Shown: piece by piece, positions 52,294 to 62,452 of the stretch | Layout of the letters: each line of letters begins with the position of its first letter | Numbering within the stretch: position 1 is the first letter of the stretch | Assembly: GCF_963676685.1 (NCBI RefSeq) | Contig: NC_092349.1 | Location: 75,906,473-75,970,472, forward strand | Direction of reading: 5' to 3' | Length of the DNA stretch: 64,000 nt | Origin: Mytilus edulis | Lineage: Eukaryota | The notes under the pieces: model-generated | The model's input: only the letters and a program-made list of their open reading frames with translations | Databases searched by the model: none | What the model was told of the DNA's origin: nothing | Position numbers and translations under genes: made by a program

Positions 52294-52416
52294 GTTAAAA
52301 GAAAAAAGCAATCAGCCAGAAAGTCAACTGGTGGTAAATGTCCTAGAATACAGGTTACTGGTAAACTAGCATCCACAGAAGCTTTGAGAGATGACCAATC
52401 TGCCTCAGTCAGTCAG
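52294..52416 (+). CDS. Exon encoding a histone H3 N-terminal tail mimic ([14 protein letters not shown])
   Basis: ttaaag|gtt ... gtcag|gtggtt. 123 nt, phase 0-0. Translation [41 protein letters not shown]. The core matches H3 residues 4-17 ([14 protein letters not shown]) at 12 of 14 positions. Confidence 0.45.
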
Positions 52417-53536
52417 GTGGTTATTATACCAATTACTGTAAACCAAGTAATTTTCGCAGATACTTTATTTCGCACTAATTAAGCCCTTTCTATCCTACTT
52501 TGTGGCAATTTAGTTTTAGTATTGTGATTTTCAAATTGACTGGATGTTGTTTTATAAGAAGTGATCTTGGTTTTAAATTTTCGAGACAATTTATATTCTC
52601 ATTATTTTTCTACTTGTGGAATTCTCAAAAAGACATCTCCGGCGAAAATTAGTTGGTTTATAGTAATACACAGAAAACAAGAATTGGTATGGAAACAGGG
52701 AATGTGTCAAACAGACAACCAAACTAGTAAGCATATCAGAGCTGAAGGCCATCAATTGGTCTTCAACATAGGGAGAAAATCCAGCACCCGACAGCCAGGC
52801 TTCAGCTAACTCCTTGAAAAAGTGTATACTAGTTCAGCAAAAATGGACATCACACTAAACTGCTAGAACATATAAATGAATTAAAATTAAAAAAGCATAC
52901 AAGACTTATAAAGACCACATTATGCCTTGAAATATGGTTGCTCTTTGTTCAGGTTGTTGTCTCTTTTGACACATTCCCCATTTCCATTCAGAATTTTATT
53001 ATTTGATATGTTTACAGATTGATGGCTCATCAACTTCCTATTAAACGAATACTTTTATTTTCTAACACACATGCGTAATGGTCCTGTATAAATAAAGGCA
53101 ATAGCAGTATACTGCTGGTCAATGAAATATTCGTCACATTTTACTAGAAGCTTTCTGAAACTTGTTGTCTGTCTTAGTAAGAACATGATTTACTGTGTGA
53201 AATGCAGTCTGATTCACTGATTAGCAACTAATACAAAATTGTTTAGTCAGGTGTATCATTAATAAGCAATAGCTCACAGTTTTTGGGAACACTAGTGATA
53301 TATAGGTCAATGATATTTGATATGAAGTTGTGTTAACATTTTCACATCTCATTTCCACAGAGATTTTGGCCCTGTCTCCTCAATCAAGGTTCATTGACTT
53401 TGAATATTTTGCATAACTTATAAATGTTGAAGAAATATTGCTATTTTAATTTCAATATTTGCATTTTACTATTGAAATAACAAAAAGGCTAGATATATCT
53501 TTGTTCTAGCAGTTCATTTTTGTATTATTACAACAG

Positions 53537-53683
53537 GAATTGGGGTCAATAGTTGAAGAACAAAAGAAGATTCCAGATAGGTATGGACCAAGGAAGAGTG
53601 CTCCTATAGTGGAAGAAATTCATATACCAGATACATCTTCTGAGGAAGAATCATCAGGGGAATCATCTGATGATCATGAAAGT
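53537..53683 (+). CDS. Exon encoding a PRKSAP motif (H3K27-region-like) plus an acidic Ser/Glu-rich tract
   Basis: caacag|gaa ... gaaagt|gtgagt. 147 nt, phase 0-0. Translation ELGSIVEEQKKIPDRYGPRKSAPIVEEIHIPDTSSEEESSGESSDDHES. Confidence 0.4.
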
Positions 53684-60100: not shown

Positions 60101-62080
60101 CCAAATTAATCCAAACTTGGCCACAATTATTTTTGGGGTATCTAATTTAAAAAATGTGTCTGGTGACCCGGCCAACCAACCAAGATGGCCGACATGGCTC
60201 AAAATAGAATATAGGGGTCAAATGCAGTTTTTGGCTTAAAACTCAAAAACCAAAGCATTTAGAGCAAATCTGACATATGGGGTTAAATTGTTTATCAGGT
60301 CAAGATCTATCTGCCCTCAAATTTTCAGATGAATCAGACAACCCGTTGTTGGGTTGCTGCCCCCGAATTGGTAATTTTAAGAAAATTTTGCTGTTTTTGG
60401 TTATTATCTTGAATATTATTATAGATAGAGATAAACTGTAAACAGCAATAATGTTCAGCAAAGTAAGATTCACAAATAAGTCAACATGACCGAAATGGTC
60501 AGTTGACCCCTTTAGGAGTTATTGCCCTTTATAGTCAATTTTTAACCATTTTTCGTAAATCTTAGTTATCTAATACAAAAAACGTCTACTCTGAAACTGC
60601 TTGGCCAAATTAATCCAAACTTGACCACAATCATCTTTGGGGTATCTTGTTTAAAAAATGTGTGGCGTGACCCGGCCAACCAACCAAGATGGCCACCATG
60701 GCTAAAAATAGAACATAGGGGTGAAATGTAGATTTTGGCTTATATCTCTGAAACCAAAGCATTAAGAGCAAATCTGACTGGGGTAAAATTATTCATCAAG
60801 TAAAAATCTATCTGCCCTGAAAGTTTCAGACAAATCGGACAACCTGTTGTTGGGTTGCTGCCCCCGAATTAGTAATTTTAAGGAAATTTTGCAGATTTTG
60901 GTTATTATCTTGAATATTATTATAGATATAGATAAACTGTAAACAGCAATAATGTTCAGCAAAATAAGATCTACAAATAAGTCAACATGACCAAATGGTC
61001 AATTGACCCCTTAAGGAGTTATTGTCCTTTATAGTCAATTGCGAACAATTTTCATAATTTTTTGTTAACTTTTGTAAATTTTTAGGAAATATTTTCCACT
61101 GTAATTACTGGGCCAAGTTCATTATAGATAGAGATAATTGTAGCAACAAGAATGTTCAGTAAAGAAAGATCTACAAACACATCACCATCACCAAAACACC
61201 ATTTTGTCATGAATTTATCTGTGTCCATTGTTGTTATGCACATAGACCAAGGTGAGCGACACAGGCTCTTGAGAGCCTCTAGTTTATAAATTTGGGTAAT
61301 CTTTTACAAAAATCTTCTCCTCTGAAACTACTGGGCCAAATAAATCCAAACTTGGCCACAATTATCTTTGGGGTATCTAATTTAAAAAATGTGTCCAGTG
61401 ACCTGGCCAACCAACCAAGATGGCCACCATGGCTAAAAATAGAATATAGGGGTCAAATGCAGTTTTTGGCTTATAACTCAAAAACCAAAGCATTTAGAGC
61501 AAATCTTACATGGGGTTAAATTGTTTATCAGGTCAAGATCTATCTGCCTTCAACTTTTCAGATGAATCAGACAACCCGTTGTTGGGTTGCTGCCCCTGAA
61601 TTGGTAATTTTAAGAAAATTTTGCTGTTTTTGGTTATTATCTTGAATATTATTATAAATAGAGATAAACTGTAAACAGCAATAATGTTCAGCAAAACAAG
61701 ATATACAAAAAAGTCAACATGACCAAAATGGTCAGTTGACCCCTTTAGGAGTTATTGTACAGCAAAATAAGATCTACAAATAAGTTTTACAACCAAATTA
61801 GTCAATTGACCCCTTAAGGAGTTATTGCCCTTTATAGTTAATTTTTAACAGTTTTCATAAATTTTTGTAAATTTTTAGAAAATATTTTCCAATGTAATTA
61901 CTGGGCCAAGTTCATTATAGATAGAGATAATTGTAGCAACAAGAATGTTCAGTAAAGTAAGATCTACAAAAAGATCACCATCACCATAACACAATTATGT
62001 CATGAATTTATCTGTGTCAATTGTTCAATATGCACATAGACCAAGGTGAGCGACACAGGCTCTTGAGAGCCTCTAGTTTA
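57195..62080. repeat. ~4.9-kb satellite with higher-order periodicity of ~1.24 kb, in the intron between the duplicated exon and the 62201 exon
   Basis: Identical six-frame ORFs at 58819, 60057 and 61292 (offsets 1238 and 1235). The array is built from two or three related ~380-620-bp subunits sharing the block tcttctcctctgaaactactgggccaaatt.a.ccaaacttggccacaat...gccaaccaaccaagatggcc.ccatggctaaaaatagaa.ataggggt. Copies are about 90-97% identical. Confidence 0.85.
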
Positions 62081-62200
62081 GTTTGCCTTTTTTTCTCTTT
62101 TCTTATTTTTTGTCCTATGTTTTGCACCATTTGCCCATATTCTCTATTCTGTAAACCCAATCCAACCTCATCTAAATGATATATCTAATAACATTTGCAG

Positions 62201-62452
62201 GAATCTGAATTAAATGAATGGTTAGAAGAACAACTAGAACCTGACACAGATAGTAGTAAAACCATAATGCCTGCTAGATCTGGAGACAAGGGTTCTGGAA
62301 AGTTATTAGCTACTAAGGCTGCTAGGAAAAGTGCCCCTTCAACTGGAGATGTCATAACTACTAAGAGAACTAGGAGGAAAGGGCGTATTCAGTTAGCAAC
62401 CAAGGCTGCAAGAAAAGGTGCTCCAGAAACAGGAGGTGTACCTTTGCCAGAG
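62201..62452 (+). CDS. Exon encoding two consecutive histone H3 tail mimics ([14 protein letters not shown] / [16 protein letters not shown])
   Basis: atttgcag|gaa ... ccagag|gtaatt. 252 nt, phase 0-0. Translation [84 protein letters not shown]. Compare H3 residues 17-35, [19 protein letters not shown]. Confidence 0.5.

What the first reader, a model, noticed from the sequence alone, without database searches (positions are those of the whole stretch)
52294..62452. Multi-exon gene built from repeated histone H3 N-terminal tail mimics
Four GT-AG-flanked exons, all symmetric phase 0-0 (123, 147, 102x2 and 252 nt). Each encodes one or two near-copies of the H3 tail modification hotspots. [14 protein letters not shown] matches H3 residues 4-17 ([14 protein letters not shown]). 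[17 protein letters not shown] and [18 protein letters not shown] match H3 residues 19-35 ([17 protein letters not shown]). PRKSAP and GKSTGGSAPA are further mimics. The K4, R8, K9, S10, R26, K27 and S28 contexts are reproduced up to five times. No histone-fold sequence is visible in the window, so this is not an H3 gene or an H3 retro-pseudogene. Single viral or host proteins with one ARKS/ARTK mimic are known (G9a automethylation site, influenza NS1 tail). A polyvalent array of H3-tail repeats in one protein would be an unusual decoy or scaffold for K9/K27 writers, readers or erasers.
Basis: partly seen in the sequence, partly recalled or inferred. Interest (0 to 1): 0.85.

Follow-up and report, generated by a model that had tools for sequence, protein, structure and literature searches.

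The report
Histone-H3-tail copies on mussel PARP4
The histone-H3-like exons are real, but they are not a gene of their own: they form the fast-evolving, disordered C-terminal tail of a mussel PARP4-like ADP-ribosyltransferase that captured and multiplied H3-tail coding sequence, an unusual architecture whose function is untested.

Summary
Four GT-AG, phase-0 exons at 52294-62452 encode peptides significantly similar to the H3 N-terminal tail (tblastn E 2e-6 to 2e-5 within the window; E about 1e-3 against billions of proteins). No histone fold is present.

The exons are the 3' end of a ~57-kb PARP4-like gene that fills the window: BRCT-like N-terminus, PARP catalytic domain with H-Y-E kept, VIT, vWA, a ubiquitin-like domain ending LRLRGG-P, a Q-rich/FG-like exon, then the H3-like exons.

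RNA-seq-guided gene models from Mytilus coruscus join these parts and contain all four exons. Exon 1 is a cassette there.

The tail was found only in Mytilus. Between the two species it evolves almost neutrally (pN/pS 0.93, against 0.17 for upstream exons). Yet the two H3-like units inside exon 4 are near-saturated at synonymous sites while keeping the peptide (ratio 0.1-0.2). Exon 1 and unit 4B share a derived RIQ.

The likeliest history is one capture of H3-tail sequence followed by internal duplication. I favour a function as H3-mimicking linear motifs on an ADP-ribosyltransferase, but this is inferred. It is a new variant of histone mimicry, of moderate interest.

The parts
4875..47432 (+). 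Core exons of a PARP4-like gene. BRCT-like N-terminus about 4875-5592. PARP regulatory and catalytic exons about 8042-16525. VIT about 19230-26400. vWA about 34986-37201. Conserved post-vWA exons at 38429-38600, 40726-40806, 42307-42411, 43581-43688, 45822-45971 and 47346-47432. Exon ends are approximate.
   Evidence: Stop-free segments. Pfam: PARP 5e-27, PARP_reg 8e-7, VIT 2e-38, VWA_3 7e-22. Best solved-structure match is human PARP4 (8sx1, E 6e-52) with H, Y and E aligned. The post-vWA exons are 94-100% identical to M. coruscus CAC5400317-19.
26976..32948 (+). LINE-type retrotransposon (ORF1 plus endonuclease/reverse-transcriptase ORFs) sitting in an intron. It is not part of the protein.
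   Evidence: ORFs of 592, 497 and 679 aa with retrotransposon-type sequences. Classification by eye only.
48811..48996 (+). First exon of the ubiquitin-like domain (..[41 protein letters not shown]). It is followed by a GC (gcaagt) donor in this window.
   Evidence: Pfam ubiquitin 2.6e-24 on the joined exons. M. coruscus model and gtaagt donor.
50084..51369 (+). Large exon. It holds the end of the ubiquitin-like domain (..IHMVLRLRGG-P), a Q-rich 33-nt tandem repeat (50388-50865, 14.5 copies) and a G/S/F-rich stretch with FG-like motifs (GFSFG, GLFG). It ends ..GGFEYKE|gtagac.
   Evidence: Collinear with the M. coruscus models.
52294..52416 (+). H3-like exon 1: [41 protein letters not shown]. 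It aligns to H3 residues 2-30. It is a cassette exon in M. coruscus.
   Evidence: tblastn versus H3, E 2.4e-5. Present only in isoform P0036 of M. coruscus. Orthologous exon at L001 25245-25373.
53537..53683 (+). Exon 2: ..DRYGPRKSAPIVEE.. followed by an acidic Ser/Glu-rich stretch. It is the most constrained of the four exons.
   Evidence: Orthologue at L001 29441-29602. pN/pS 0.21.
56702..56902 (+). Exon 3: DTYKSPGFSYNTAGKSTGGSAPAITKPKSAVLD, with an internal 99-nt tandem duplication that also duplicates the donor. The exon ends at 56803 or at 56902.
   Evidence: Single copy in M. coruscus at L001 38294-38395.
62201..62452 (+). Exon 4: [11 protein letters not shown].. followed by two H3-tail units. 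Unit 4A is [18 protein letters not shown] (from 62300). Unit 4B is [27 protein letters not shown] (core from 62387). The donor is GAG|gtaatt. The true 3' end of the gene is not in the window.
   Evidence: Intact orthologue at L001 50844-51089. Three further genomic alleles come from Logan contigs. DNA alignment. Unit-versus-unit dN/dS.

Best explanation
What it is (shown). The four exons are the alternatively spliced C-terminal tail of a mussel (Mytilus-type) PARP4-like mono-ADP-ribosyltransferase gene. Its composition suggests the tail is intrinsically disordered. The domain order along the window is: BRCT-like, PARP regulatory plus catalytic domain (H-Y-E kept), VIT, vWA, conserved post-vWA region, ubiquitin-like domain ending LRLRGG followed by Pro, Q-rich repeat, FG-like stretch, then the H3-like exons.

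Origin (inferred from sequence). The H3-like peptides descend from real H3 N-terminal tail coding sequence, not from convergence. In M. coruscus 14 consecutive residues are identical to H3. The sequence was probably captured once and then multiplied by exon and intra-exon duplication. Exon 1 and unit 4B share the derived RIQ where H3 has RKQ. Duplication is still going on: there is a 99-nt duplication in exon 3 in this species, and M. coruscus has a second copy of exon 4.

How it most likely works (inferred, not shown). The units act as short linear motifs that make a non-histone enzyme look like an H3 tail. The K9/S10-like and K27/S28-like sites would be bound or modified by machinery that normally acts on H3. 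Candidates are K9/K27 methyltransferases and their chromodomain readers, S10/S28 kinases, PARP1/2-HPF1 (which prefers these very KS sites), and H3-tail importins. They could also serve as in-cis acceptor sites for the attached PARP domain. Either way they would control where the PARP4-like protein goes or what it binds. Inclusion or skipping of exon 1 would tune the number of motifs.

The confidence given (0.45) is for the whole statement. I put about 0.9 on the anatomy and H3 origin and about 0.4 on the mimic mechanism.
For: One gene:
- M. coruscus models CAC5400317-19 join the post-vWA PARP4 exons, the Ubl, the Q-rich exon and exons 1-4.
- Those models come from BRAKER with RNA-seq hints.
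- The gene immediately upstream in that locus is the PARP4 core: PARP, VIT, VWA.
- A gastropod model (Batillaria, P0143) joins the complete PARP4 core to a C-terminal Ubl in one protein.
- All parts are collinear on the + strand of the window.
- The enzyme looks active: best PDB match is human PARP4 with H, Y and E aligned.

Homology to H3:
- E 2e-6 to 2e-5 within the window.
- E about 1e-3 against 1.8 to 5.8 billion proteins.

Coding is maintained:
- There are no stops, and all three length differences from M. coruscus are in frame (6, 15 and 99 nt).
- The chance of no stop under neutral substitution is 0.056.
- Splice sites are conserved in three lineages.

Long-term constraint on the motif:
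- Units 4A and 4B differ at 47-71% of synonymous sites but only 12-17% of non-synonymous sites, a ratio of 0.09-0.19.
- TKAARKSAP is kept in M. coruscus and in three further alleles.

Literature:
- H3 S10 and S28 in KS motifs are prime Ser-ADP-ribose acceptors of PARP1/2-HPF1 (PMC6172693).
- ARK(S/T) mimics in G9a and in viral proteins are bound or modified like H3 (PMC2175347, PMC6028506; one search listed both, I read neither, and the statement rests on my own knowledge).

Composition: the tail is 80% disorder-promoting residues and 18% hydrophobic.
Against: - Between the window species and M. coruscus the four exons evolve almost neutrally: pN/pS 0.93 (exon 1 has 13 non-synonymous changes against 1 synonymous). 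Neighbouring PARP4/Ubl exons give 0.17.
- Amino-acid differences (39) are not fewer than a neutral simulation predicts (42.5 +/- 3.2).
- Positions that match H3 are not better conserved than the rest: 61/78 against 93/116.
- K/R-S motifs are not significantly enriched over composition: 7 observed against 4.5 expected, P = 0.14.
- Exon content of the tail differs between species. Two M. coruscus exons are missing from the window.
- The low unit-versus-unit dN/dS could also arise from two separate captures from different H3 genes.
- No transcript data were examined for the window species.
- The 3' end of the gene lies outside the window.
- No binding or modification data exist.
- PARP4 is not known to use HPF1 (my own knowledge).
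Confidence: 0.45

Rival explanations
1. Evolutionary by-product. Fragments of H3 coding sequence were exonised into the already fluid, low-complexity 3' region of the PARP4-like gene. They are tolerated as disordered filler and have no H3-related function.
For: - pN/pS is 0.93 between Mytilus species, against 0.17 for upstream exons.
- H3-identical residues are being lost in both lineages at the same rate as other residues.
- Exon 1 is skippable.
- The tail gains and loses exons and repeats between species.
- The module was found only in Mytilus, in an exhaustive search of 1.84 billion representatives.
Against: - The reading frame and splice sites are retained, and all indels are in frame.
- Units 4A and 4B are near saturation at synonymous sites yet each keeps 15 of 18 residues identical to H3. 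Pure drift since a single capture would not do this.
- The TKAARKSAP core is kept in five sequences from three lineages.
Confidence: 0.28
2. Nuclear-import signal. The basic H3-like units ([26 protein letters not shown]) work mainly as nuclear localisation signals, as the real H3 tail does for importins. Alternative splicing of exon 1 would shift the PARP4-like protein between cytoplasm and nucleus.
For: - The tail has 39 K+R in 241 residues, clustered in the H3-like units.
- Exon 1, the most basic unit, is a cassette exon.
- That the H3 tail is an importin-recognised signal is from my own knowledge and was not checked in a paper here.
Against: - Any basic cluster would do for import, so this does not explain retention of the non-basic H3 residues ([15 protein letters not shown]) between old duplicates.
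- No localisation data exist.
Confidence: 0.12
3. Intron-rich H3 variant, or a PARP4-H3 fusion. Exon 4 ends at about H3 residue 39 with a conserved donor. A histone-fold exon might lie beyond the window.
For: - Exon 4 ends in GAG|gtaatt in all three lineages, so at least one more exon is likely.
- Unit 4B runs up to H3 position 38-39.
Against: - No histone-fold similarity (E <= 1) was found in the window, in the 5.5 kb between the two M. coruscus exon-4 copies, or in the 4.1 kb after the second copy.
- Exon 4 has an acceptor and is joined to upstream exons in the M. coruscus models.
- Introns of up to 5.3 kb in this gene mean a more distant exon cannot be excluded.
Confidence: 0.05
4. Stand-alone gene encoding a polyvalent H3-tail decoy.
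For: The four exons are phase 0-0 and could in principle be read on their own.
Against: - No start codon context or first exon was found.
- Exon 1 has an acceptor and follows the Q-rich exon in phase in the M. coruscus models.
- H3-like residues make up under 100 of well over 2,000 codons of the gene.
Confidence: 0.03

Closest known systems
Endogenous and viral histone-H3 mimics: G9a/GLP automethylation site ARKT, influenza NS1 ARSK, SARS-CoV-2 ORF8 ARKS, PAF15 and LIG1 H3-like peptides
   Same: A non-histone protein displays an H3-like ARK(S/T) context in a flexible region (PMC2175347 and PMC6028506, listed but not read; PAF15 and LIG1 from my own knowledge).
   Different: Known mimics are single motifs of 4-8 residues that arose by convergence. 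Here the units are 17-36 residues long and evidently homologous to H3 (up to 14 consecutive identical residues). They cover both the K4-K9-S10 and the K23-K27-S28-G34 regions. They are repeated four to six times over four exons and are attached to an ADP-ribosyltransferase. Function as a mimic is untested.
PARP4 / vault PARP (vertebrate)
   Same: Same core architecture, and the catalytic domain is the closest solved homologue (8sx1, E 6e-52). H-Y-E is kept. VIT and vWA are present.
   Different: The core is a divergent paralogue, only 48% identical to the 'PARP4-like' protein annotated in M. trossulus. The C-terminal part is replaced by Ubl, Q-rich, FG-like and H3-like modules. The vertebrate-specific Pfam families PF26156 and PF26166 appear only in the vertebrate hits and in no mollusc hit. 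Vault association is unknown.
PARP1 automodification region and histone KS-motif serine ADP-ribosylation (PARP1/2-HPF1)
   Same: K/R-S motifs in a flexible segment of a PARP protein. The H3 S10 and S28 contexts copied here are preferred Ser-ADPr sites (PMC6172693).
   Different: PARP4 is not known to partner HPF1 (my own knowledge). K/R-S density here does not exceed compositional expectation. No modification data exist.
Histone H3 family (Pfam PF00125)
   Same: The N-terminal tail sequence is homologous.
   Different: No histone fold. The tail copies are internal, not at a free N-terminus, so readers that need the free Ala1 amine (many PHD fingers, by my own knowledge) could not bind them as they bind H3.

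Membership tests
Histone H3 (PF00125) | Histone-fold domain | tested here: not met
   tblastn of full H3 finds only tail matches in the window and in the M. coruscus locus. Pfam finds no family on the 241-aa tail.
Histone H3 (PF00125) | N-terminal tail sequence [35 protein letters not shown] | tested here: met
   Three significant alignments, E 2e-6 to 2e-5, 59-61% identity over 28-36 residues. M. coruscus unit 4B has [14 protein letters not shown] identical to H3.
PARP4 / vault PARP | PARP catalytic domain with the H-Y-E triad, closest to PARP4 | tested here: met
   Pfam PARP 5e-27. Human PARP4 8sx1 E 5.9e-52, with H (LLMHSS), Y (GIYFSD) and E (DDEFVIY) aligned.
PARP4 / vault PARP | VIT and vWA domains after the catalytic domain | tested here: met
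   VIT 2e-38 and VWA_3 6.6e-22.
PARP4 / vault PARP | N-terminal BRCT domain | tested here: inconclusive
   My 67-aa fragment gave no Pfam hit. The N-terminal exons resemble homologues that carry PF00533. The M. coruscus upstream gene has BRCT hits marked only faint or weak.
PARP4 / vault PARP | C-terminal major-vault-protein interaction region | not tested
   No model of that region was run. The vertebrate-specific families PF26156 and PF26166 listed for vertebrate hits are absent from the mollusc hits.
Ubiquitin-like domain (PF00240) | Beta-grasp ubiquitin fold sequence with a C-terminal LRLRGG | tested here: met
   Pfam ubiquitin 2.6e-24. The sequence ends ..VLRLRGG followed by P. Whether it is cleaved could not be tested.
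Histone mimic (functional class) | Short H3-like motif around a modifiable K/S in an accessible region | tested here: met
   Motifs ARKST, PRKSAP, ARKSAP and ARKGAP. Disorder-type composition.
Histone mimic (functional class) | Actually bound or modified by H3 writers, readers or erasers | not testable with these tools
   Needs biochemistry.
Ser-ADP-ribosylation acceptor region | Enrichment of K/R-S motifs | tested here: inconclusive
   7 motifs in 208 aa against 4.5 +/- 1.8 in shuffles, P = 0.14.

The most novel reading that the evidence does not exclude
Mollusc PARP4-like paralogues may use their C-terminal tails as 'integrated baits'. Each lineage would have grafted copies of a highly conserved host docking peptide onto an ADP-ribosyltransferase plus ubiquitin-like module. 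The grafts seen here are the H3 tail in Mytilus, RNA polymerase II CTD heptads in Crassostrea gigas (Pfam RNA_pol_Rpb1_R, E 2e-10), and a ribosomal P-stalk-like EEESDEEMGFCLFD in Batillaria (seen by eye). Pathogen or selfish-element factors that target those peptides would then be captured or sensed. This would be analogous to the integrated decoys of plant NLR immune receptors.
Probability: 0.07. Interest if true: 0.9.

Novelty: new variant of a known kind. Interest (0 to 1): 0.55.

Why it matters
If the units work as H3 mimics, this would be a natural case of histone mimicry acquired by copying real H3-tail sequence rather than by convergence. The copies are multiplied into a polyvalent array and wired to an ADP-ribosyltransferase and a ubiquitin-like domain. 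These are two modification systems that meet on exactly these H3 serines and lysines. It would give a tractable natural construct for asking how H3 writers, readers and PARPs treat tail sequence outside a nucleosome. It would also shed light on the poorly understood biology of PARP4. If the units are only tolerated debris, the locus is still a clear example of exon capture and ongoing duplication in a fast-evolving disordered tail.

Tried and rejected
1. A protein search with the four concatenated exons returned only genuine H3 proteins. The word-index candidate step missed the real orthologue, so its silence about orthologues meant nothing.
2. Exact look-ups of P0031 and of the window's 92-aa read-through ORF found nothing.
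3. I fetched the Pinctada orthologue locus to look for a tail in another bivalve. The 10-kb downstream flank is a Gypsy-type retrotransposon and says nothing. The locus file never reached the scripting machine.
4. I tested whether H3-identical positions are better conserved than the rest between the two Mytilus species. They are not.
5. I tested K/R-S enrichment. It is not significant.
6. Pfam on the Batillaria tail found no ribosomal P-protein family, so the P-stalk resemblance rests on inspection only.
7. A literature search for PARP4 together with 'histone mimic' gave nothing relevant.
8. I considered structure prediction of the tail and dropped it. A single-sequence model would give low confidence whether or not the tail is disordered.
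9. I could not obtain a Mytilus H3 gene to compare codons, so one capture and two captures cannot be separated that way.
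Full report
**1. What is in the sequence**

The window is AT-rich (about 32% G+C) eukaryotic DNA with large introns, satellite arrays and a LINE element. 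At the coordinates given there are four stop-free stretches bounded by AG and GT. They translate as follows:
- Exon 1: [41 protein letters not shown].
- Exon 2: ELGSIVEEQKKIPDRYGPRKSAPIVEEIHIPDTSSEEESSGESSDDHES.
- Exon 3: DTYKSPGFSYNTAGKSTGGSAPAITKPKSAVLDL followed by a near-identical second copy.
- Exon 4: ESELNEW...[52 protein letters not shown].

A tblastn of canonical H3 against the whole window finds three significant matches and nothing else: exon 4 unit B (E 2.1e-6), exon 4 unit A (E 1.8e-5) and exon 1 (E 2.4e-5). The next unrelated hit has E 4.6. No part of the histone fold matches. Real H3 proteins are still recovered at E about 1e-3 when the exons are searched against 5.8 and 1.8 billion proteins.

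Two details need correcting. The tandem duplication in exon 3 has a period of 99 nt. Its second copy has no acceptor, so exon 3 is 56702-56803 or 56702-56902, not two 102-nt exons.

**2. Which gene they belong to**

Stop-free segments on the + strand upstream read as a PARP4-type protein. Pfam confirms PARP_reg and PARP (5e-27), VIT (2e-38), VWA_3 (7e-22) and a ubiquitin domain (3e-24). The catalytic domain's best solved relative is human PARP4 (8sx1, E 6e-52), with the H, Y and E positions aligned.

A search with the non-H3 parts found Mytilus coruscus CAC5400317-19, 82% identical over the best local alignment (34% of the query). These are three isoforms of one model. The model runs from the post-vWA PARP4 exons (MLHQLTARAVIRDYEDG..., SFIAVEEREK...) through the ubiquitin-like domain, the Q-rich exon and the G/S/F-rich stretch into exons 2, 3 and 4. 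Isoform CAC5400319 also includes exon 1 ([39 protein letters not shown]).

Every piece maps collinearly onto the window. In the M. coruscus locus the gene called immediately upstream is the PARP4 core. The split falls in a tandem array of the MLHQLTARAVIRDYEDG exon and looks like an annotation or assembly break. A gastropod model (Batillaria) carries the full PARP4 core and a C-terminal ubiquitin-like domain in one protein.

The M. coruscus annotation was made with BRAKER using RNA-seq hints on a Nanopore assembly, if, as I believe but did not confirm, GCA_011752425 is the assembly of PMC7227121. This is indirect transcript support for the junctions and for exon 1 being a cassette. The model stops early (..SGAKVLEN*) because that copy of exon 4 carries three homopolymer indels. 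A second, intact copy 5.7 kb downstream encodes ...[52 protein letters not shown] with the same gtaatt donor.

So the finding is the 3' tail of a gene of about 57 kb that occupies nearly the whole window.

**3. Distribution**

An exhaustive HMMER scan of 1.84 billion representatives with the tail found three kinds of hit:
- the M. coruscus cluster;
- a small cluster of three genomic read-through ORFs from Logan contigs, 93% identical in exon 4;
- after one low-complexity hit to the G/S/F-rich stretch (P0038, E 1.3e-9), real H3 proteins at the significance limit.

None of the 120 other PARP4-like proteins retrieved carries an H3-like motif, although all were 1,267 residues or shorter. The window's PARP4 core is only 48% identical to the annotated M. 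trossulus PARP4-like protein and 57% to a Solemya protein. It is therefore a divergent paralogue. The tail, as far as can be seen, is confined to Mytilus.

**4. Evolution**

*Recent history.* Against M. coruscus the four exons have pS 0.11 and pN 0.10, a ratio of 0.93. Exon 2 is constrained (0.21). Exon 1 is the opposite, with 13 non-synonymous changes against 1 synonymous. Neighbouring PARP4 and Ubl exons give 0.17. Amino-acid change in the tail matches a neutral simulation: 39 observed against 42.5 expected. Residues identical to H3 are lost as fast as others.

*Signs that coding is kept.* There are no stops (chance 0.056 under neutrality). All three length differences are multiples of three. 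Splice sites are conserved in three lineages.

*Longer history.* Units 4A and 4B inside exon 4 differ at 47-71% of synonymous sites but only 12-17% of non-synonymous sites, a ratio of 0.09-0.19. Each is closer to H3 (15/18 residues) than to the other (12/18). Exon 1 and unit 4B share RIQ where H3 has RKQ, a shared derived state that points to duplication within the gene.

The simplest history is one capture of H3-tail coding sequence, old internal duplications during which the peptide was preserved, and relaxed constraint plus continuing duplication recently. Two independent captures from different H3 genes would also explain the synonymous divergence. I could not test this because no Mytilus H3 gene was obtainable.

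**5. Mechanism**

*Shown:* an apparently active PARP4-type catalytic domain, an internal ubiquitin-like domain ending LRLRGG-Pro, and a tail of disorder-type composition (80% disorder-promoting residues) carrying H3-derived units with K4, R8-K9-S10 and R26-K27-S28 contexts.

*Inferred:* these act as linear motifs that expose the enzyme to H3-directed binders and modifiers, or provide in-cis acceptor sites. The H3 S10 and S28 KS motifs are preferred serine ADP-ribosylation sites of PARP1/2-HPF1 (PMC6172693). ARK(S/T) mimics in G9a and in viral proteins are treated like H3 (PMC2175347, PMC6028506; one search listed both, I read neither, own knowledge).

*Against a finely tuned function:* the near-neutral recent evolution, and the lack of K/R-S enrichment (P = 0.14).

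I put about 0.9 on the anatomy (tail of a PARP4-like gene, H3-derived) and about 0.4 on the mimic mechanism. The rivals are:
- tolerated exonised debris (0.28);
- mainly a nuclear-import signal (0.12);
- a histone-fold exon beyond the window (0.05), given none within 4-5.5 kb downstream in M. coruscus;
- a stand-alone decoy gene (0.03).

**6. Comparison with what is known**

It works, if at all, like the known histone mimics. It differs in four ways: it is homologous to H3 rather than convergent, it is long, it is repeated, and it is fused to a PARP. It is a member of the PARP4 family by catalytic, VIT and vWA criteria. It is not a member of the H3 family because it has no histone fold. I found no paper describing it.

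**7. A lead seen on the way**

The PARP4-derived C. gigas protein XP_034299736 carries RNA polymerase II CTD-like heptads in the corresponding tail position (Pfam E 2e-10). The Batillaria tail contains EEESDEEMGFCLFD, which resembles the ribosomal P-stalk C-terminus as I recall it (no Pfam support). Three lineages with three different grafted host peptides on the same enzyme family would be remarkable. It rests on three sequences and on my eye.

**Verdict**

This is a new variant of a known kind, of moderate interest (0.55).

Noticed in passing
Protein P0034 (Crassostrea gigas XP_034299736.1), residues about 250-330: A C. gigas protein that begins with the post-vWA PARP4 segment (..MLHQLAARAVIRDYEDG..) continues into RNA polymerase II CTD-like heptads (SPAYSPTSPAYSPTSPAY; Pfam RNA_pol_Rpb1_R E 2e-10, above the cut-off), then an RS/SR-rich region. 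This is another conserved host 'tail' grafted onto a PARP4-derived protein.
   Followed up: partly
Protein P0143 (Batillaria attramentaria), residues about 1080-1207: A gastropod PARP4-like protein has a C-terminal ubiquitin-like domain (Pfam 2e-18) followed by EEESDEEMGFCLFDSDDD. This resembles the conserved C-terminal peptide of ribosomal P-stalk proteins as I recall it. There is no Pfam support.
   Followed up: partly
window 48997-48998: The intron after the first ubiquitin-like exon starts with GC (TACA|gcaagt) in this window. M. coruscus has the canonical gtaagt. This is a GC-AG intron, or possibly a weakened splice site.
   Followed up: partly
window 50388-50865: A 33-nt tandem repeat, 14.5 copies at 90% identity, lies inside the large coding exon and encodes (QQQQMFQPQVQ)n. 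It is much longer than in the M. coruscus model. The exon also holds FG-nucleoporin-like motifs (GFSFG, GLFG) further on.
   Followed up: partly
window 26976-32948 (+): An apparently intact LINE-type retrotransposon (ORFs of 592, 497 and 679 aa, with endonuclease and reverse-transcriptase features) sits in an intron between the VIT and vWA exons of the PARP4-like gene.
   Followed up: no
window 57494-61900: The intron between exons 3 and 4 is largely a satellite-like array. There is a 384-nt tandem at 57494-58262, then alternating repeats of about 500 and 735 nt that give a period of about 1,238 nt. Related copies occur at L001 27046-28118.
   Followed up: partly
window 62460-62950: An insertion of about 500 nt lies directly after the exon 4 donor. 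It is absent from M. coruscus and from the Logan contig. It contains an 8/16-nt microsatellite (TCCGTCAG) and a 169-nt tandem repeat, so it looks like a small mobile element.
   Followed up: no
L001 7956-10471 (M. coruscus): The exon encoding MLHQLTARAVIRDYEDGVFSS, with its flank, is repeated more than twenty times in tandem. The annotation splits the PARP4 gene in two at this point. It may be a real expansion or a long-read assembly artefact. The window has a single copy at 40726-40806.
   Followed up: partly
L001 45035-45366 and 50765-51095 (M. coruscus): Exon 4 with its flanks is present twice, 5.7 kb apart. The first copy differs by three homopolymer indels that create the premature stop in the published protein models. 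This may be a segmental duplication or an uncollapsed haplotype.
   Followed up: partly
window 55788-56213 (-) and 24669-24914 (+): ORF fragments of a dispersed repeat (..YGVYISQLVRFARVCSDVIDFNERNQ.. / ..LNKLISKGYRTNIVIRSLNIVHIGTNIDIVISK..) lie in introns of the gene. They are probably transposon-derived.
   Followed up: no
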